A stretch of DNA of 64,000 nucleotides from Escherichia coli phage Shin27, in the sequence record LC788709.1. One strand, 5' to 3'. This document shows, one piece after another, positions 24,169 through 52,148 of the stretch (the first letter of the stretch is position 1; the number at the start of each line of letters is the position of its first letter). The notes under the pieces are model-generated. The model was not told the origin of the DNA and searched no databases. It saw only the letters and a list, made by a program, of their open reading frames with translations. The translations under genes were made by a program, and so were the position numbers.

Positions 24169-25950
24169 TTAGGTTAGGCGTTGAACTGTTACACGTAGTC
24201 TTGGCAAGAAAACAGCTGCCGCTTCTGCAGCGTGAATGATAACACCCAACTCAACGTTGCCATTACCAAGGTTTTTAATAGTATAAATATATCCGTTCCT
24301 ACGGAAAGCAAACTCATCAGGCCTACTAGCCCAAGTCTGTGTATAACTATAGGAAGTTGTACTGTGATAAGGTACTAGATATCCAGGTGGCAGAGTAAGA
24401 ATCTGGTGGAATACACCATCACCAGCTGTATAACTTTGTTGACGTCTACCTTGTACCTGCCAAGCGCTACCGCCGTAAGTACGCACAGGCATTCCAGCAG
24501 TATTAAGATTACCCATAATAACTTCAGTAGTTAATATAACAGTAGAGTGAGCATTTGGTAATCCCAACCAAACTGTGGCCAAAGGTGTGTAGAAGTCACC
24601 AGCACCAGGGTAGGATGGAGTTATATCGTCCCCTACATAAGTACTTGCAACGTTGCCTGGGAATAACCTGAGTGGTACAGTACTAGGACTCCACACAGGT
24701 CCATGTTCATTACCAATGGAGTTGGTATTAGTATCTACATACCATTGTTTACCTACACCAAATTTATATAAGCTAATTTGAGAAGCTGCACCCCCATAGT
24801 TAACAGGAGACCACAACCCGCCATTACTAGAGCCGATAAATTCACATCGTGCAGTATTATCACCAAAAACTCCGGTATACGCAGCGTTATTACCAACATA
24901 CTCCATATCAGGGCGATAGCCTAAGTTTCCGAAAGCATTCTGGTTAATAAATTTATAGCCTGTATTTGGTAGGCTAACACCTTTAATAGTAAAATTAGAC
25001 GGAGATATTAGGATATCTGAACCGGTAAATGGATTACCAGAAACTCCCATACTACCATTAGAATAGCGCAGATTTAGCACATACCAAATAACCTTAGTTG
25101 GCGTAACGTTATACCAGTCCTGTACATATACCTTTCTAGCAGACTGAGCAGCCATATTAGAAGTAGAACCTCTACAAACATATATTTTTTCTGGGTATGC
25201 AGGAGATTGGTAAAGAACGTTTACGTTATCTGGTAGTACGCCTTTTTTACCTGCGAAGCCACGAATATTAGAACTACAAACATAAAACCAATCATGGCCT
25301 CTACCAGCAGAACCAATAGGCGCCTGCCAGTTAGGTTCCCAATAATCTGCGTTACCACCATCTAAAGGAACAGTAGAGACACCAGTTGGAAAACCCATAA
25401 GACTCCAGGCTCTGGCAATGGCTTCACCAGCAGAAACACCACCAGGTCTAAAGATCTGGAAACCAGAGGACTGTAGTAAACTGCCTCCAGAACCTTGCCT
25501 AGCAATAGATTCCTCATGACCAAGACCACCATTATAGATATAAGTACCATGAGCTAAACTATCACCGATCGCAAAAGCAGATGTTACAGATAATTCAGCA
25601 CCAGCACGTGGTGGGTCTTCAAAGAATGATAAGAACTGGCCAACCTGAGATTGAGTACCATTCAGAAATCCACGATGAGTACCGTTTATCTCAATAGCAG
25701 TTAATATAACTCTACCCGGATCATTGGATTTAATATTTATAATATCCCAAGGCATCTGAGTAACAAAGTATCCATTACCTGCATTACCTAGGGCTGCTTC
25801 ATAAGTCCCATCAACTAGGACAAATGGCATATCTGAGTGGAAGATACTATTAGTATTTGGAGAGTAGTGCTGATTTATATCACCACCATTAGCAGCGTTT
25901 AGAGATAATACAGTTTTACCATCACTAAATTTTCCTGCGAAAAAACTCAT
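24169..25950 (-). CDS. receptor-binding tail protein (T5 pb5/Oad-like)
   Basis: 593-aa Gly/Asn/Tyr-rich ORF at the end of the late module, divergent from a lipoprotein gene as for T5 oad-llp. Confidence 0.5.
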
Positions 25951-25975: not shown

Positions 25976-26004
25976 TTGCTTAGATCCCTCTATTTTGCTA
26001 TAAT
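25976..26004 (+). promoter_or_regulatory. T5-type sigma70 promoter (TTGCTT-N17-TATAAT) for the llp-like gene
   Basis: consensus hexamers with 17-bp spacer, AT-rich leader ATATTTATAAATT, ~30 bp upstream of ATG at 26034. Confidence 0.6.
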
Positions 26005-26033: not shown

Positions 26034-26300
26034 ATGAAAAAGTTACTAGCCATCGTAGTTGCAGCAGTAGTGTTGACGGGTTGTGTGCCAGCTCCCGAGC
26101 CATTTTGTAAGGCATATGTGAAGTCTTATGGTCATGTTGGTGAAGAACACTACGCTTTAGATATTCGAGAAGCACGTACTGTGGGCTACCGATTCCCTAA
26201 AACTCAGTTACGCACTAAGTTTGGGTGGTGGGATTTGTCACAGTTTGATCTCAAATATGGTGATTGCAAATTTAAACTAGAACAATCTGGTCACTTGTAA
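26034..26300 (+). CDS. llp: lipoprotein, Llp-like receptor-blocking / superinfection-exclusion candidate
   Basis: 88-aa ORF with signal peptide and lipobox LTGC; divergent from putative RBP gene; own sigma70 promoter. Confidence 0.55.
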   Translation: MKKLLAIVVAAVVLTGCVPAPEPFCKAYVKSYGHVGEEHYALDIREARTVGYRFPKTQLRTKFGWWDLSQFDLKYGDCKFKLEQSGHL

Positions 26301-26629
26301 TTAGTATAAAGTAAAAAGATCTCGAAGTAAACAAAAATTTTTATTTCTGGGATGAGGTACAGGTAGCAAACACAATGCAAGATGAAGAAAAGTCCTTTCA
26401 GGAACCTGTTAACTTTGAAATAAATCCCAGGAATAAAAAGCAATACATGATGCAATTGATGAAATCATTCAAGACGTCATAGAAGATACAATAGAAGACG
26501 TGATGGGAACATCCTTCTTACTAGAAGAATCCGGCTTCGACGAAGTAATGGATCTAATCGGGACAGTCGTAATGGTTCGTGCAATTGCTAGGGTATTCCA
26601 AATACCAAGACTATAGGAGAAGCAAAGAG

Positions 26630-26764
26630 ATGTCAGACGACAACAGAAGAAAGAACAGACGCGGGGAAGTGTACGAAAGTTGGATAAATAGTTTCGGATT
26701 CGGGACTGTGTTATTCTTTATCTTTGTACTCTTTTGGTTAGCAGCTATGGCGGGGTGGTTATAA
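26630..26764 (+). CDS. small membrane protein
   Basis: 44-aa ORF from ATG with AGGAG RBS, basic N-terminus and C-terminal TM helix; ORF track gives a longer GTG-start version from 26579. Confidence 0.35.
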   Translation: MSDDNRRKNRRGEVYESWINSFGFGTVLFFIFVLFWLAAMAGWL

Positions 26765-26868
26765 TGGAAGTAGTAATTATTACTTTACTAGTTGTGGTAA
26801 TTATAGGGCAGTGTATTTTAGATAACCACTTAGCTCGTATTGAACGTAAGCTGCGGGGAGATAAATAA
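26764..26868 (+). CDS. small membrane peptide
   Basis: 34-aa ORF, N-terminal TM helix, stop overlaps next start (TAATG). Confidence 0.3.
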   Translation: MEVVIITLLVVVIIGQCILDNHLARIERKLRGDK

Positions 26869-27062
26869 TGGATTGGTTAGGACTTATTACACTTGTAGTA
26901 TGGATTGTCTGGATTGTTGGATACATGACGTCACATCGTAATCGTATACAGAAGCTAGAGGATAAAGTCACCCAACTAAACATTAATATGGATAAGTTAC
27001 TGGACTCCCAACGTAATGATCGGGCGCGTATTCACCAACTTGAGAGGGAATTAGATGTTTAG
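26868..27062 (+). CDS. small membrane protein with coiled-coil tail
   Basis: 64-aa ORF, N-terminal TM, translationally coupled. Confidence 0.4.
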   Translation: MDWLGLITLVVWIVWIVGYMTSHRNRIQKLEDKVTQLNINMDKLLDSQRNDRARIHQLERELDV

Positions 27063-27300
27063 CTTTGTAGCTATCTTCATTATCGGAGTGCTTGCGGGGA
27101 TCTTCGGAACACTCGGGGCGATTAACAAGCATCGTGAATACGTTGCGGGAATATCGCGGGAGCTTTCGGAAAGGGAGCGGAGGTTTGCGGAGAAACGTGC
27201 GGAGTTTGAGCGGGAGTGGTCGGATGGATCTCGGGCGTCGCGGAGGAGATTTCGTATGTCAGAATCAGGAGACAAGCCGGTAGACCGGTGTTCCTCCTAA
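27055..27300 (+). CDS. small membrane protein with charged coiled-coil tail
   Basis: 81-aa ORF, N-terminal TM, R/E-rich C-terminus. Confidence 0.4.
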   Translation: MFSFVAIFIIGVLAGIFGTLGAINKHREYVAGISRELSERERRFAEKRAEFEREWSDGSRASRRRFRMSESGDKPVDRCSS

Positions 27301-27463
27301 GTTAGCGCTAATTACCAATTCTCGAAATCTCATAAGATTACACATGAAGGTGTGCCCAGAGGTTACCTAGATGAGAATGAGTCTCATTACCGCCCCGGTA
27401 CTTAGCAAGCTAATAGTCACACTATGTGATGATAACATAGTGTGACTATTTTATTTTTAATTG

Positions 27464-28198
27464 TTAGGCGACTTTTAATTTATCAATGAATTGTTGCGGG
27501 CTGCAACTATATTCTGCGCGTTCTTCCTCGGTCATACCTTCCCAACACATTTTTAAACGGTCGGCTAGGAATTGATAATCATTATCATCATCTAATGATT
27601 CATCAATAAAGGTTTCACCGATCAATGTTACGCCGATTGATAGGATATCATTAACGGCTTGAGCGTCCAGCGTTTTAAATCCAGCACTTGCCGCCGCCGA
27701 TAATACGCCTTTATGATCATCAATCATCGTAAAATCAGCGTTCGGATATAACTGTTTAAACAGTTCAAAGTAATAGCTTTTGTATACAGCGTCTTTACTA
27801 TGATATATTTCGCTAACCTTATCCGCTTCAAAGTATTTGTGTAATGTATCGCGAGAGAATACGCGGATATTGCTATTTCCGCGCCCTCGCAAGCCTTGTT
27901 TACGCAAATAAAAGTAATCGCTTTTAGACATAAGGCGCGCGGTACAAATAATATTTAAAGTATTTGCATCATTCATACATTGGCGCATATATTCAACCAA
28001 TGGCAATAAAGAATCCTGCATAATTAAATCATGTTTACAGGCTTCGCGTGAATACTTATTTAAATTTAAATTCCCGTTATCATCAAAGCAAGGCGCTACA
28101 CGGTGGAAAGAATTAATGATAGTTCCGTCTAAGTCCCAAATCATAACGCGGGAAATATGCGGGAAAGCGCGGGCAATATTCAAGGTTACTTGATTCAT
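27464..28198 (-). CDS. dmp: HAD-family 5'-deoxyribonucleotidase (T5 Dmp-like)
   Basis: 244-aa ORF with HAD motif I (IWDLDGTI); size and position next to A1-like gene. Confidence 0.65.
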   Translation of the reverse strand: MNQVTLNIARAFPHISRVMIWDLDGTIINSFHRVAPCFDDNGNLNLNKYSREACKHDLIMQDSLLPLVEYMRQCMNDANTLNIICTARLMSKSDYFYLRKQGLRGRGNSNIRVFSRDTLHKYFEADKVSEIYHSKDAVYKSYYFELFKQLYPNADFTMIDDHKGVLSAAASAGFKTLDAQAVNDILSIGVTLIGETFIDESLDDDNDYQFLADRLKMCWEGMTEEERAEYSCSPQQFIDKLKVA

Positions 28199-29041: not shown

Positions 29042-30706
29042 TTATGCAAAGAATTTACCGTTTTTGAAATCAATCAAAGTACGTTGCCCGTTTGCATAGG
29101 TAATTAAATGCGTTTGCGTCCAGCTTGACGCGCCCACGTTGTAGCCCATATCAAGGGAACCAGCAACGCCAGCGGTATAAACGCCGCCGTAAATGCTAGC
29201 CGTGTGAGTGTGACCAGTGTTAAGGCGTCCCAACTTTTTAAACTGCTTAGGATTGCCCCGACTGCCGTTAATGCCATTGTGACCATGTACGCCGCATTCA
29301 ATGCCAGCGATTTTAAAGGACTGGTCAGTAGTCAAAAAAATGGCGTTAAATTCGCATCCTGCAACGTTTCTAAGCGCATAATCTAACACGTTAAAGGTAT
29401 CATCCTTTTCAGCAATAGCGGCGTAAATCGCAGCGTTTAGACGGTGATACAGTTCCGCGTTTGCGGGATCATCTTTAATGTTTGCGTTACGATCATCTAA
29501 CCAGCGGGATAATGCTAAATCATGGTTAGATTCCACAATGATTGTTTGACTAAAATCACGTTCCATAGATTCTAATACGCGTCCAGTATCGATAAGATCA
29601 TCAATAACTTTATCACGTCCGGCGGCGTATTGTTTCGCAAGGAATACACCACTAGCGCGGTTATGATGGTTACGCGATGTAAAATCATGCACGTCATGAA
29701 TAAATTGATATTTCGGTTTAAGAATATCAAGCAAGCTGTTTTCACTAGCCCATGAAGCGACGGCGCAATCATCATCTAATTTTTCGGCGTGAATATCGCC
29801 ATATTGCAAGCCTAGAACATGATCGGACGTTTCAAAACATCCGGTAGGCATAGCGCAAACATTCAAATCATAGAACATTCCGCTTTCATCCATTGTTTCA
29901 ATCTGGCGAGCATAAAATTCGCCGTCGTCGTCGAACTCTACCAGCAAAGCGCCATAATTATGTAAAGCCTCAGCTTTTTGACCTGCTTTCTGCTGAATGT
30001 AGTTTTTAAGCGTAGCCGTTCCGGTTGAATACATACGGCACACTACTTCACCTTTTAACGCTGGCACACTTTCAGCGGTAATTTTAGCGTGACCAATTGC
30101 CAGACCTTCAATATTTAAAGCCGTGGCGGTTTCTGCGAATCCTGAAAGCGGGTAATCTGCCGTTGGTAAAACGTTAATTTCAGCCATGAAAGCAAAGCGG
30201 CGGTTATTTAAAAATACGTTTTTATCACAAACATATTTATCAAATGCGGGATCGTATTTAATACCGTTTGCCCCTTCCCCGTTCTGAAATCCGTTTTTGT
30301 TGTAAATGAATTTGCTAACAAGTAATTCAGCGCCGCAATATTCAGCGAATTTTTCCAGACTTGCTAAAAAGTTTTTATGCGGGAAAGTATTATTTTGAAT
30401 CGACGTTAGAATAAAACGGCGACCGGACTTAACTTCCCATTGCTCAACGGTGCTAGAAACAATTCCCGCCGCCTCTGGGCGATCATCGTTTTTAATCGCC
30501 TTTTCGGCTTTTGCCGCTTTCGGTTTCGCTGGTTTATTTGCTTCCAGCCAGTCACAAATTGCGGTCGAATGTTTCGGCGTACCATAAACAGCTTTTGAAA
30601 TATCGTCGCAAACTTCCAATTTAGTAGCGCGTAAACGCTTACCGTAGAAGTTAAAATCTGCGGCCATTTTCAAAATTTGAGCTTGTTTTTCTGCGGAAAT
30701 ATTCAT
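29042..30706 (-). CDS. A1: metallophosphoesterase, T5 A1-like (host DNA degradation / second-step transfer)
   Basis: 554-aa ORF with calcineurin-like motifs (GDIHAE, NHD, GHTHT); size matches T5 A1 as recalled. Confidence 0.65.
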   Translation of the reverse strand: MNISAEKQAQILKMAADFNFYGKRLRATKLEVCDDISKAVYGTPKHSTAICDWLEANKPAKPKAAKAEKAIKNDDRPEAAGIVSSTVEQWEVKSGRRFILTSIQNNTFPHKNFLASLEKFAEYCGAELLVSKFIYNKNGFQNGEGANGIKYDPAFDKYVCDKNVFLNNRRFAFMAEINVLPTADYPLSGFAETATALNIEGLAIGHAKITAESVPALKGEVVCRMYSTGTATLKNYIQQKAGQKAEALHNYGALLVEFDDDGEFYARQIETMDESGMFYDLNVCAMPTGCFETSDHVLGLQYGDIHAEKLDDDCAVASWASENSLLDILKPKYQFIHDVHDFTSRNHHNRASGVFLAKQYAAGRDKVIDDLIDTGRVLESMERDFSQTIIVESNHDLALSRWLDDRNANIKDDPANAELYHRLNAAIYAAIAEKDDTFNVLDYALRNVAGCEFNAIFLTTDQSFKIAGIECGVHGHNGINGSRGNPKQFKKLGRLNTGHTHTASIYGGVYTAGVAGSLDMGYNVGASSWTQTHLITYANGQRTLIDFKNGKFFA

Positions 30707-50662: not shown

Positions 50663-51415
50663 TTATCCAACTAGTGGTTCTAGTTCTAAGTCACAGAAGT
50701 GGTACACATCGGTACGAAGTGCATCAAGTCCGTTGAAGGTATTCTCAAATTTATGAGAAATGTATTTTTCAGGAATACCGCTTTCAGACGGATGATCTGT
50801 CTCGATGCGATACTTATTAGTAATACCAGATTCAACCTTAATAAGCATGGAATCCATATCTAGAGTATTGGTTTCCATGATTAGCTCTCCCTCATTGGGG
50901 AAACGCACATCGGTAACGATTGCGACGTCTGGGTCGTCTTTATCGATGGATTGCTCCAGAATTATGAGCCAAATGCGTTCATGCACCAGCTGCCTTCCTA
51001 ACTCAGTACCTACAAGCTGTAGCATTTTTCTTGGGGAGATAAATACGCTATACAGCGCATCATCAGCTTGCCCAATTAACTGCTGAGGATCAAGGTATTT
51101 TCCTTCAAAAATCGGCCAAACGTACGAGAAGTCCTCAAACTTATCGATACCATACTTAAACCATACGTCTCTAGCTCGCTCCAATTGAGATTGTGTGACC
51201 GTAAACCATTGGTCAATCTCTTTTCCCCTGCGCTCTCCCAGAAACTCTGGAGTTACCCCGAGGATTACGGATGCAAGTTCGTAAACGGGTTTAGCAAAAC
51301 TGTAACGACGGGATAAACACGTTGGGAACGTGTCATTACACCAGTCAATCATTAATTCTGCAACGGTATCTTTTCCCGCACCAGCCTCACCATGTAAACC
51401 GACTAATACTGACAT
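50663..51415 (-). CDS. deoxynucleoside monophosphate kinase-like P-loop protein
   Basis: 250-aa ORF with N-terminal GEAGAGKDT P-loop as in phage dNMP kinases. Confidence 0.5.
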   Translation of the reverse strand: MSVLVGLHGEAGAGKDTVAELMIDWCNDTFPTCLSRRYSFAKPVYELASVILGVTPEFLGERRGKEIDQWFTVTQSQLERARDVWFKYGIDKFEDFSYVWPIFEGKYLDPQQLIGQADDALYSVFISPRKMLQLVGTELGRQLVHERIWLIILEQSIDKDDPDVAIVTDVRFPNEGELIMETNTLDMDSMLIKVESGITNKYRIETDHPSESGIPEKYISHKFENTFNGLDALRTDVYHFCDLELEPLVG

Positions 51416-51768
51416 TAATCTTTCCTATTTGTAATGGGTGGATAGTAAACTAAGCAACGTTTTTCTTGTAAATCTTGACGATAGAAGCAAACCATACCAG
51501 TCAGTCGTGAAATGTAAGAGTAAACTGCTTCCTCGCATTTTGCTTTTGCATTCCAATCTTTGTAAGGTACAACAACTACTACGCCATCTTCGCCATTCGT
51601 AGCTAATTTCTTTTCGAATTTGAAATCAAAGCTACACGGCTGAAGTCCTTTAGGCCAGTCAACATGGGCTTGCTTTAACTCATGTGAAGGCTCTGGTTTT
51701 ATTTCTTCTGCACAGCCTGTGATTGTGATTGCGGCTGCGAGCAGTACTCCAAGTTTCCAGTTAAGCAT
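51415..51768 (-). CDS. lipoprotein
   Basis: 117-aa ORF with signal peptide and lipobox ITGC. Confidence 0.45.
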   Translation of the reverse strand: MLNWKLGVLLAAAITITGCAEEIKPEPSHELKQAHVDWPKGLQPCSFDFKFEKKLATNGEDGVVVVVPYKDWNAKAKCEEAVYSYISRLTGMVCFYRQDLQEKRCLVYYPPITNRKD

Positions 51769-52148
51769 GCTAATCTTTCCTCGAACTCCTTACTCTGCTT
51801 TTTAGCAATTAATGTAACCAATCCAGGCTTTGCAGCTATAATGTCTTGACGACTAAGTGCTTTATCAAGCTGACTAATTTTCTTGTCTAGATCTGCTTGG
51901 GAAACATTATTCATTGTGAAATACTGATTCATACGAGTTTCACGAAGTTCACTTTCAGCTTTCACATTATTAAGGGAAGTCTCTAGGGACGTAATCTTTT
52001 TAGTAGCTACTGCAAGATCACCTGCTAGAGTCTCAACCTTATTTACTAAGTGATAAGCACCGAATCCGATACCTATCGCAAGACCAGCTCCCAGGATATA
52101 CCACTTACCTTGCCATATTCCTGAAAGAAGTTTTTGTATCAAATCCAT
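51699..52148 (-). CDS. membrane-anchored coiled-coil protein
   Basis: 149-aa ORF; N-terminal TM; overlaps neighbours. Confidence 0.4.
   Translation of the reverse strand: MDLIQKLLSGIWQGKWYILGAGLAIGIGFGAYHLVNKVETLAGDLAVATKKITSLETSLNNVKAESELRETRMNQYFTMNNVSQADLDKKISQLDKALSRQDIIAAKPGLVTLIAKKQSKEFEERLACLTGNLEYCSQPQSQSQAVQKK

What the first reader, a model, noticed from the sequence alone, without database searches (positions are those of the whole stretch)
26579..27300. Four tandem single-pass membrane mini-proteins downstream of the lipoprotein gene
Four ORFs of 34-81 aa, each with an N-terminal TM helix and a charged or coiled-coil tail, are translationally coupled on the plus strand between the Llp-like gene and the dmp-like gene. 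They could be membrane-acting superinfection-exclusion, injection-control or lysis-timing factors.
Basis: seen in the sequence. Interest (0 to 1): 0.45.

Follow-up and report, generated by a model that had tools for sequence, protein, structure and literature searches.

The report
Conserved T5-type membrane mini-gene operon
The four tiny membrane-protein genes are real and conserved, but they are the already-annotated, still uncharacterised T5 genes T5.159-T5.162, which are transcribed with the receptor-blocking lipoprotein gene llp, so this is a known open question rather than a new discovery.

Summary
The window is T5-like phage Wa28 (Epseptimavirus). All four ORFs exist: orf1 26630-26764 (44 aa), orf2 26764-26868 (34 aa), orf3 26868-27062 (64 aa) and orf4 27055-27300 (81 aa). 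They are chained by TAATG, TAATG and 8-nt overlaps, and each has a Shine-Dalgarno sequence.

One correction: orf1 is tail-anchored, with a basic N-terminus and a C-terminal TM helix. It is not N-anchored.

They are orthologues of T5.159-T5.162, annotated in T5 as "contains single transmembrane domain" (PHROGs 8596, 6369, 5851, 6447).
- They are under purifying selection (dN/dS 0.15-0.37).
- orf1 and orf4 occur in about as many phage records as close dmp homologues do.
- orf2 and orf3 are gained, lost or duplicated between relatives.
- They lie in one operon with llp, from a T5-type promoter to a strong terminator just inside the terminal repeat.

Published data show transcription only after second-step DNA transfer (Bas33). 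CRISPRi-ART knock-down in T5 gave no fitness effect.

No homologue was found outside T5-like phages. No exclusion, holin, spanin or PspB family is matched above threshold, and the true spanins lie elsewhere in the window.

Function remains unknown. My best guess, with low confidence, is an accessory inner-membrane arm of the llp lytic-conversion operon.

The parts
25976..26004 (+). Promoter of the llp operon: TTGCTT, 17-nt spacer, TGcTATAAT (extended -10), preceded by an A-rich tract. It is divergent from the receptor-binding-protein gene.
   Evidence: Read from the sequence. The same hexamers and spacing occur in T5 inside the promoter feature annotated in AY543070. The consensus scan missed it because its -35 matches only 3 of 6.
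26034..26300 (+). llp: Llp/Cor-type receptor-blocking lipoprotein (88 aa, lipobox LTGC). First gene of the operon.
   Evidence: phrog_1119, E 1.2e-23. Annotated as receptor-blocking protein in relatives.
26375..26616 (+). Disrupted acidic ORF (phrog_16810 family). It is intact at 104 aa in EscoHU1. Here it is broken by a 2-nt insertion near 26433-26438 and ends at a TAG (26614-26616) where relatives have CAG.
26630..26764 (+). orf1 (44 aa), orthologue of T5.159. Tail-anchored: basic N-terminus with the motif RRGEVYESWINSFGFG, then a C-terminal TM helix. It is the most conserved gene of the cluster.
   Evidence: phrog_8596, E 2.4e-28. 82.5% identity to T5 over 40 residues. dN/dS 0.15. Found in 447 phage records. 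Start codon settled. Not annotated in the Wa28 record.
26764..26868 (+). orf2 (34 aa), orthologue of T5.160. N-terminal TM helix plus a 15-residue basic tail (NHLARIERKLRGDK).
   Evidence: phrog_6369, E 2.6e-23. dN/dS 0.19. A 51-aa tandem paralogue exists in 30 records. Not annotated in the Wa28 record.
26868..27062 (+). orf3 (64 aa), positional orthologue of T5.161. N-terminal TM helix plus a heptad-patterned helical tail ending in the conserved ERELDV. It has two alloforms about 38-44% identical and is absent from many relatives.
   Evidence: phrog_5851, E 8.7e-36. Alloforms and absences. dN/dS 0.17 and 0.30 for the two alloforms.
27055..27300 (+). orf4 (81 aa), orthologue of T5.162. N-terminal TM helix continuous with a long charged helix (residues 2-67), then a disordered tail that takes four alternative forms among relatives.
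   Evidence: phrog_6447, E 4.9e-46. Family alignment A1. AlphaFold2: one helix 2-67, mean pLDDT 73. Found in 440 phage records. dN/dS 0.37.
27301..27354 (.). Conserved junction between orf4 and the start of the terminal repeat. The repeat starts at about 27354 by transfer of the EscoHU1 annotation.
   Evidence: Repeat features in EscoHU1 and T5. Alignment of the junction in 13 loci.
27412..27460 (+). Intrinsic terminator of the operon: a 16-bp perfect stem, a 7-nt loop, then TTTTATTTTT. It lies about 58 bp inside the terminal repeat.
   Evidence: Scan. Folding energy -23.2 kcal/mol, z = -5.6. The hairpin is kept with different stem sequences in T5, other Markadamsvirinae and the Pantoea phage.

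Best explanation
Shown (about 0.95):
- The four ORFs are the Wa28 orthologues of T5 genes T5.159-T5.162.
- They form the distal, translationally coupled part of the llp operon. The order is: T5-type sigma-70 promoter at 25976-26004, llp, a decayed acidic ORF, orf1-orf4, then a terminator at 27412-27460.
- They encode very small single-pass membrane proteins.

Inferred from the positive-inside rule:
- orf1 is tail-anchored (N-terminus inside).
- orf2-orf4 are N-out/C-in.
- All four therefore display short basic or helical peptides on the cytoplasmic face of the inner membrane.
- orf1 and orf4 are the constant core. orf2 and orf3 are variable N-anchored members.

Inferred function (about 0.3): they are a non-essential accessory module that modifies the inner membrane of the infected cell, alongside Llp's blocking of the outer-membrane receptor. 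The most likely role is a receptor-independent barrier to DNA entry by a superinfecting phage. The operon is the last unique transcription unit to enter the cell before the right terminal repeat. It would therefore be switched on only once the genome is almost fully inside.

The stated confidence refers to the functional part.
For: Identity and reality:
- PHROG matches with E 1e-23 to 1e-46.
- T5 has the same four-gene arrangement, annotated as single-TM proteins.
- dN/dS is 0.15-0.37 and third-codon positions vary most.
- The stop/start overlaps are conserved.
- orf1 is in 447 records and orf4 in 440, against 443 records with dmp at 80% identity or more.

Operon:
- The promoter matches the annotated T5 llp promoter.
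- No good promoter or terminator lies between llp and orf1.
- The terminator is strong and structurally conserved.
- In Bas33 RNA-seq at 20 min, read density over the cluster (2290 reads over about 820 bp) is similar to llp (1108 reads over 267 bp). Counts are zero or near zero when infection is arrested after first-step transfer (PMC13250531 Dataset S1).

Accessory, conflict-type behaviour:
- orf3 is absent in 8 of 24 loci and orf2 in one. orf2 is duplicated in 30 records. There are two orf3 alloforms and four orf4 tails.
- T5.159-T5.162 and lpp all scored 'Not Fit' in CRISPRi-ART (PMC11879866).

Independence from receptor type:
- The same orf1 and orf4 accompany three different Llp types.
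- A mini-TM cluster persists next to the receptor-binding-protein gene in relatives that have no llp.

Topology: charge distribution around the TM helices and the single long helix of orf4.
Against: - There is no experimental or homology evidence for any function.
- The only link to exclusion is co-transcription with llp. The cluster also exists without llp, so the association may be positional (next to the receptor-binding-protein gene or the repeat junction) rather than functional.
- No similarity to known exclusion proteins or defence-system models was found.
- Topology is predicted, not measured.
- Translation has not been demonstrated.
- Per-gene RNA-seq counts alternate between very low and high (2, 479, 1, 1704, 104 reads). 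This probably reflects how reads were assigned to overlapping tiny genes, but it could hide internal processing or promoters.
- CRISPRi-ART in T5 has false negatives, because structural genes also scored 'Not Fit'. It is weak evidence for dispensability.
Confidence: 0.3

Rival explanations
1. Host-takeover or anti-defence factors at the membrane. The cytoplasmic tails would bind and inhibit or redirect a host inner-membrane protein. Candidates are the Psp stress system, FtsH, the energy-transducing TonB/ExbBD or Tol complexes, or a membrane-bound abortive-infection effector.
For: - The tails are predicted to be cytoplasmic.
- The genes are fast-evolving and are gained and lost, as in conflict genes.
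- They appear non-essential on a laboratory K-12 host.
- The cluster is kept in relatives without llp.
- orf3 gives sub-threshold, whole-length matches to PspB (Pfam E 0.0056; NCBIfam E 0.0092) and CcmD (E 4e-4). Both are small N-out/C-in proteins.
Against: - All these matches are below the curated cut-offs.
- Only 3 of 11 orf3-family members match PspB, and none of them is of the T5 alloform.
- There are no PADLOC matches.
- No target is known.
Confidence: 0.22
2. Lysis-timing modulators (antiholin- or holin-like) that tune the class III holin, which in T5-like phages lies among the early genes.
For: - They are small bitopic membrane proteins.
- orf3 weakly matches a holin PHROG (phrog_1296, E 0.0086).
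- The holin and endolysin lie in the early region, so some delay mechanism is needed. This last point is inference from the gene map.
Against: - They are not in or near the lysis cassette. In the relative EscoHU1, holin and endolysin are annotated about 2-3 kb from its spanin gene. The window's own spanin pair is at 51415-52148.
- The holin match is weak and is driven by the TM helix plus coiled coil.
- orf3 is missing from many relatives.
- Knock-down gave no fitness effect.
Confidence: 0.1
3. Injection completion or membrane resealing. As the last unique genes to enter the cell, they would close or stabilise the inner-membrane channel left by the tape-measure protein, or anchor the incoming or replicating DNA end to the membrane through their basic tails.
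For: - The operon lies immediately before the right terminal repeat, and T5 DNA enters left end first.
- orf1 and orf4 have basic, arginine-rich cytoplasmic segments.
- They are expressed only after second-step transfer.
Against: - The argument is purely positional.
- Knock-down shows no fitness cost, which would be unexpected for a resealing function.
- Membership of the cluster is very variable.
Confidence: 0.08
4. i-spanin-like or other periplasm-spanning lysis components that pair with the neighbouring lipoprotein.
For: - orf3 has an N-terminal TM helix plus a coiled coil and lies near a lipoprotein gene.
- It gives very weak matches to Rz-like PHROGs (E 0.1-0.2).
Against: - A bona fide spanin pair is present at 51415-52148 (phrog_739 E 3e-38; phrog_812 E 5e-30).
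- orf3's soluble part is only about 42 residues.
- The charge bias predicts that this part is cytoplasmic.
- Llp has a known, different function.
- orf3 is often absent.
Confidence: 0.02
5. Chance ORFs in an AT-rich spacer that are not genes.
For: - They are very short.
- orf1 and orf2 are not annotated in the Wa28 record.
- RNA-seq counts for the orf1 and orf2 homologues are near zero.
Against: - dN/dS is 0.15-0.37 and third-codon positions vary most.
- Start/stop overlaps and Shine-Dalgarno sites are conserved.
- Each ORF has its own PHROG family.
- orf1 is conserved as far as a Pantoea phage at 49% identity.
Confidence: 0.02

Closest known systems
T5 genes T5.159, T5.160, T5.161 and T5.162 (GenBank AY543070; PHROGs 8596, 6369, 5851, 6447)
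   Same: - Orthologous, with the same order, sizes (42/35/64/81 aa in T5; 44/34/64/81 aa here) and overlapping junctions.
- Same position between llp and the right terminal repeat.
- Each has one TM helix.
- Identity to T5 is about 82% (orf1), 83% (orf2), 38% (orf3) and 72% (orf4).
   Different: - orf3 is a different alloform from T5.161.
- orf4 has a different C-terminal tail.
- Wa28 has an extra, decayed acidic ORF between llp and orf1.
- Function is uncharacterised in T5 as well. A 2025 re-annotation still lists them as 'unknown function'.
Llp (T5) / Cor receptor-blocking lipoproteins
   Same: - Same operon and same expression after second-step transfer.
- Envelope-located.
- Non-essential accessory function.
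   Different: - Llp is a secreted, lipidated outer-membrane protein that binds the receptor.
- orf1-orf4 have no lipobox or signal-peptidase site and no sequence similarity to Llp.
- They are predicted to be inner-membrane proteins with cytoplasmic tails.
- They do not co-vary with Llp type.
Inner-membrane superinfection-exclusion proteins of virulent phages, such as T4 Imm and Sp (comparison from general knowledge, not tested by alignment)
   Same: Small, early-expressed, dispensable membrane proteins of a lytic phage. This is the working analogy for the proposed mechanism.
   Different: - No family-level match was found in the Pfam, PHROG, NCBIfam or PADLOC scans.
- Exclusion activity is untested.
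PspB and CcmD-type small N-out/C-in bitopic proteins
   Same: orf3 aligns over nearly its whole length, with an N-terminal TM helix, a basic juxtamembrane segment and a short cytoplasmic helix.
   Different: - Scores are below the curated cut-offs: 17.1 against 25.6 bits for PspB and 20.3 against 24 bits for CcmD.
- Only the Epseptimavirus alloform matches.
- This is a resemblance in architecture, not demonstrated homology.
Rz-type i-spanins
   Same: N-terminal TM helix followed by a coiled coil.
   Different: - orf3 is far shorter.
- The predicted topology is the opposite.
- It lies outside the lysis cassette.
- The genuine spanin pair is at 51415-52148.

Membership tests
T5.159-T5.162 families (PHROGs 8596, 6369, 5851, 6447) | Significant full-length match of each ORF to its family profile | tested here: met
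   E-values of 2.4e-28, 2.6e-23, 8.7e-36 and 4.9e-46, each covering essentially the whole profile.
T5.159-T5.162 families (PHROGs 8596, 6369, 5851, 6447) | Synteny: + strand, downstream of llp or the receptor-binding-protein gene, immediately before the terminal repeat and dmp | tested here: met
   The arrangement is the same in T5, EscoHU1, Bas33 and 22 IMG/VR loci.
T5.159-T5.162 families (PHROGs 8596, 6369, 5851, 6447) | One TM helix per protein | tested here: met
   Hydropathy maxima of 2.0-2.7 over 19 residues. The T5 annotation reads 'contains single transmembrane domain'.
Superinfection-exclusion proteins | Homology to a characterised exclusion protein or defence model | tested here: not met
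   No such match was found in Pfam, PHROGs, NCBIfam or PADLOC.
Superinfection-exclusion proteins | Expression protects the cell from a second infection | not testable with these tools
   This needs plating or DNA-entry assays.
Holin / antiholin | Encoded in or next to the endolysin/spanin cassette | tested here: not met
   In the relative EscoHU1, holin and endolysin are annotated about 2-3 kb from its spanin gene. The window's own spanin pair lies at 51415-52148, about 24 kb from this locus.
Holin / antiholin | Significant match to a holin family | tested here: inconclusive
   Only orf3 matches, to phrog_1296 at E 0.0086, among many weak hits from the TM helix plus coiled coil.
Rz/Rz1 spanins | N-in/C-out protein with a long periplasmic coiled coil, plus a partner outer-membrane lipoprotein in the lysis cassette | tested here: not met
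   The tail is only 42 residues and the charge bias predicts it is cytoplasmic. PHROG spanin hits have E of 0.1 or worse. The real pair is at 51415-52148.
PspB (PF06667 / PRK09458) | Score above the curated cut-off, consistently across the family | tested here: not met
   17.1 against 25.6 bits, and 16.3 against 90 bits. Only 3 of 11 family members match.

The most novel reading that the evidence does not exclude
Demerecviridae carry, next to the receptor-binding-protein gene and just before the right terminal repeat, a conserved but rapidly diversifying operon of inner-membrane mini-proteins. It has a tail-anchored core (orf1/T5.159) plus exchangeable N-anchored coiled-coil partners. This operon would form a receptor-independent gate against DNA entry by a second phage, or a seal of the phage's own injection channel. 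It would be switched on by being the last unique DNA to enter the cell, and it would be a second, inner-membrane layer of T5 'lytic conversion' alongside Llp.
Probability: 0.2. Interest if true: 0.6.

Novelty: already known. Interest (0 to 1): 0.28.

Why it matters
T5 is a classical model phage, and T5-like phages are widely used in biocontrol and therapy cocktails. Four genes that nearly every member keeps in the llp operon still have no assigned function.

If they prove to be an inner-membrane exclusion or membrane-repair module, that would explain how T5-like phages protect an infected cell from relatives that use other receptors. This bears on how cocktails are designed.

As a scan result, however, it adds little. 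The genes are already annotated in T5 and in PHROGs. The practical gains are:
- orf1 and orf2 are missing from the Wa28 annotation.
- orf1 has the opposite orientation to the other three.
- The operon's boundaries are now defined.

Tried and rejected
1. Remote homology for orf4. A profile of 35 sequences searched against 1.84 billion representative proteins found only 5 representatives, all T5-like. A word-indexed search of 5.8 billion proteins found only T5-like phage proteins and contaminant contigs.
2. The same for an orf1 profile: only T5-like hits, the most distant being Pantoea phage AAS21 and Eos-like phages.
3. Pfam, NCBIfam and PADLOC scans: nothing above threshold.
4. The idea that orf2 and orf3 are paralogues. 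hhalign gave 17% probability, so this is not supported. The 51-aa extra gene, in contrast, is an orf2 paralogue (phrog_6369, E 9e-17).
5. Spanin and holin readings: rejected.
6. The long GTG-initiated form of orf1 (61 aa): rejected, because relatives have in-frame stops upstream.
7. AlphaFold2 of orf4 gave a single long helix. I ran no fold search, because a single helix would give meaningless matches.
8. Literature. No paper in the held library names T5.159-T5.162 in its main text. Davison's injection review and several T5-like genome papers do not discuss them. Proteomic evidence of translation could not be found: the phiR2-01 supplement is not held, and the Bas33 protein list is not in the stored files.

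Full report
**Where the window comes from.** The 1.5 kb around the finding is 100% identical to Escherichia coli phage Wa28 (LC788710, Demerecviridae, Markadamsvirinae, Epseptimavirus). It is 96-99% identical to many Salmonella and E. coli T5-like phages. The neighbouring genes are:
- the receptor-binding tail protein (24169-25950, minus strand, phrog_4815);
- an Llp/Cor-type lipoprotein (26034-26300, plus strand, phrog_1119);
- dmp (27464-28198, minus strand);
- A1 (29042-30706, minus strand).

**The observation.** The four ORFs exist:

| ORF | Coordinates | Length |
|---|---|---|
| orf1 | 26630-26764 | 44 aa |
| orf2 | 26764-26868 | 34 aa |
| orf3 | 26868-27062 | 64 aa |
| orf4 | 27055-27300 | 81 aa |

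- The orf1/orf2 and orf2/orf3 junctions are TAATG overlaps. orf3 and orf4 overlap by 8 nt.
- Each start is preceded by a purine-rich Shine-Dalgarno sequence.
- Each protein has one strongly hydrophobic 19-residue stretch.

Two details of the finding need correcting:
- The start at 26579 is an upstream GTG. In relatives that frame contains stop codons, and the universally conserved start is the ATG at 26630.
- orf1 is not N-anchored. It has a basic 21-residue N-terminus (MSDDNRRKNRRGEVYESWINS) and a C-terminal TM helix. orf2-orf4 have the TM helix at the extreme N-terminus, followed by basic or helical tails.

By the positive-inside rule, all four soluble segments are predicted to be cytoplasmic. 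This is inference. AlphaFold2 models orf4 as one continuous helix (residues 2-67) with a disordered last 14 residues (mean pLDDT 73).

**They are known genes.** T5 itself (AY543070) has the same four genes in the same place:
- They are T5.159 (42 aa), T5.160 (35 aa), T5.161 (64 aa) and T5.162 (81 aa).
- They lie between lpp/llp (T5.158) and the right terminal repeat.
- Each is annotated 'hypothetical protein; contains single transmembrane domain'.
- Each window ORF hits its own PHROG family over the full length (8596, 6369, 5851, 6447; E 1e-23 to 1e-46).
- The Wa28 record annotates only orf3 and orf4. orf1 and orf2 are unannotated there.

**They are real genes under selection.** I compared 24 non-redundant loci (T5, EscoHU1 and 22 IMG/VR contigs).
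- Pairwise Nei-Gojobori dN/dS is 0.15 (orf1), 0.19 (orf2), 0.17 and 0.30 (the two orf3 alloforms) and 0.37 (orf4). llp gives 0.22.
- Third-codon positions are the most variable in every gene, and the -1/-4/-8 stop-start overlaps are conserved.
- orf1 is found in 447 phage records and orf4 in 440. This essentially equals the 443 records that carry a dmp of 80% identity or more.

**Lineage restriction.**
- An orf4 profile searched against 1.84 billion representative proteins returned only five representatives, all T5-like.
- Word-indexed searches of 5.8 billion proteins with orf4 and with an orf1 profile returned only T5-like phage proteins.

**Architecture of the cluster in relatives.**
- orf1 and orf4 are constant.
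- orf3 has two alloforms about 38-44% identical and is missing in 8 of the 24 loci. In those loci orf2 is coupled directly to orf4.
- One locus lacks orf2.
- Thirty records, Bas33 among them, have an extra 51-aa orf2 paralogue.
- orf4 has four alternative C-terminal tails after the conserved ...EWSDGSRASR(K/R)RF. In Bas33 a homing-endonuclease gene lies just downstream of orf4, and homing-endonuclease annotations adjoin orf4 in several other records.
- The cluster types do not track the three Llp types present. The module is therefore independent of receptor specificity.

**More distant relatives without llp keep a mini-TM cluster beside the receptor-binding-protein gene.**
- Pantoea phage AAS21 has an orf1 homologue (49% identity) plus three other coupled 22-42-aa TM genes.
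- Eos-like phages and contig L031 have orf1 followed by three to four N-anchored coiled-coil proteins. One of these is a weak orf4 relative.
- Klebsiella phage KpGranit (Sugarlandvirus) has two N-anchored coiled-coil proteins before its terminal repeat.

**Transcription unit.**
- Upstream of llp is TTGCTT, a 17-nt spacer, then TGcTATAAT (25976-26004). The hexamers and spacing match the annotated T5 llp promoter.
- No convincing promoter or terminator separates llp from orf1.
- After orf4 comes a 16-bp perfect hairpin with a U-tract (27412-27460; -23.2 kcal/mol, z = -5.6).
- In T5 and other lineages the stem sequence differs but the hairpin is kept, even in the Pantoea phage.
- Transferring the EscoHU1 repeat annotation puts the start of the terminal repeat at about 27354. 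The operon therefore terminates about 58 bp inside the repeat.

**Published expression and fitness data.**
- Locus tags bas33_0187-0191 are the orf4-to-orf1 homologues, and bas33_0192 is llp.
- In Bas33 RNA-seq at 20 min (PMC13250531, Dataset S1), the first untreated replicate gave 104, 1704, 1, 479 and 2 reads for 0187-0191 and 1108 reads for llp.
- All had zero or one read when infection was arrested after first-step transfer.
- The alternating per-gene counts probably reflect how reads were assigned to overlapping tiny genes. The density over the whole cluster is close to that of llp.
- The genes are therefore not pre-early.
- In the T5 CRISPRi-ART screen (PMC11879866, Fig. 6a source data), T5.159-T5.162 and lpp all scored 'Not Fit'. 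This fits dispensability on a laboratory host, but the screen also missed some structural genes.

**What they are not.**
- The window has a genuine spanin pair at 51699-52148 and 51415-51768 (phrog_739 and phrog_812).
- In the relative EscoHU1, holin and endolysin are annotated about 2-3 kb from its spanin gene.
- orf3's matches to a holin PHROG, Rz-like PHROGs, DUF7365, PspB and CcmD are all below threshold. They are limited to one alloform and are explained by the TM helix plus coiled-coil architecture.
- There are no PADLOC matches.
- orf2 and orf3 are not demonstrably paralogous.

**Interpretation.** What is shown is a conserved, translationally coupled set of inner-membrane mini-protein genes. 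They form the distal part of the llp operon, are expressed after second-step transfer, and are apparently accessory and diversifying.

What is inferred, at about 0.3, is that they act at the cytoplasmic membrane as a receptor-independent complement to Llp. Two observations fit this idea:
- They are co-transcribed with the one known exclusion gene.
- They evolve in the gain-and-loss manner of conflict genes.

There is also a biological rationale, from general knowledge of T5: a superinfecting T5-like phage that uses another receptor would express host-takeover genes harmful to the resident phage.

The rivals cannot be excluded by computation: a host-takeover or anti-defence factor (about 0.22), lysis timing (about 0.10), and injection completion or resealing (about 0.08).

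**Verdict.** It is not a new kind of element. Interest is modest.

Noticed in passing
window 26375-26616 (+): An acidic ORF between llp and orf1 (phrog_16810; intact at 104 aa in EscoHU1 and L013) is broken in this phage. A 2-nt insertion sits in an A-run near 26433-26438, and the ORF ends at TAG 26614-26616 where relatives have CAG. T5 keeps only a short remnant. It is either a decaying gene or a shorter product starting at ATG 26503.
   Followed up: partly
window 27412-27460 (+); also L003, L012, L016, L026 and L031: The operon's terminator hairpin lies about 58 bp inside the terminal repeat. It is conserved as a structure with different stem sequences across Markadamsvirinae, including the Pantoea phage. 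In the left copy of the repeat it would sit about 60-100 bp from the physical end of the genome, where there is no upstream transcription for it to stop.
   Followed up: partly
window 27301-27354: The roughly 50 bp between orf4's stop and the start of the terminal repeat (…GCGCTAATT…TCTCGAAATCTCATAAGATTACACATGAAGGTGTG…) is highly conserved between Wa28, T5 and other relatives. It is a candidate recognition or cut region for generating the left genome end.
   Followed up: no
L034 2235-2774 (bas33_0186); L007 and L009 downstream of orf4; records listed: The orf4/terminal-repeat junction appears to be an insertion hot spot. Bas33 has a homing-endonuclease gene there, several other records carry homing or HNH endonuclease annotations next to orf4, and L007 and L009 carry extra inserted DNA. 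Truncated or alternative orf4 C-terminal tails may be related to such insertions; I did not test this.
   Followed up: partly
window 51415-52148 (-): An overlapping spanin pair is present: a 149-aa i-spanin (phrog_739) and a 117-aa ORF (phrog_812). This shows that the phage has a conventional outer-membrane disruption system, contrary to some genome papers that report T5-like phages as lacking spanins.
   Followed up: partly
L026 2064-2502; L027 and L029 3001-4400; L031 3001-3654; L032 4372-5060: More distant Demerecviridae that lack llp still have a coupled cluster of single-pass membrane genes between the receptor-binding-protein gene and the terminal repeat. In Eos-like and Sugarlandvirus phages the last gene (153-184 aa) has an N-terminal TM helix, a coiled coil and a Ser-rich tail ending in paired cysteines.
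   Followed up: partly
PMC13250531 Dataset S1 (bas33_0187-0191): Per-gene RNA-seq counts across the cluster alternate between about 1-2 and hundreds to thousands of reads for adjacent overlapping genes. This is probably an artefact of read assignment for very short overlapping genes. Per-gene values for such genes should not be trusted.
   Followed up: no
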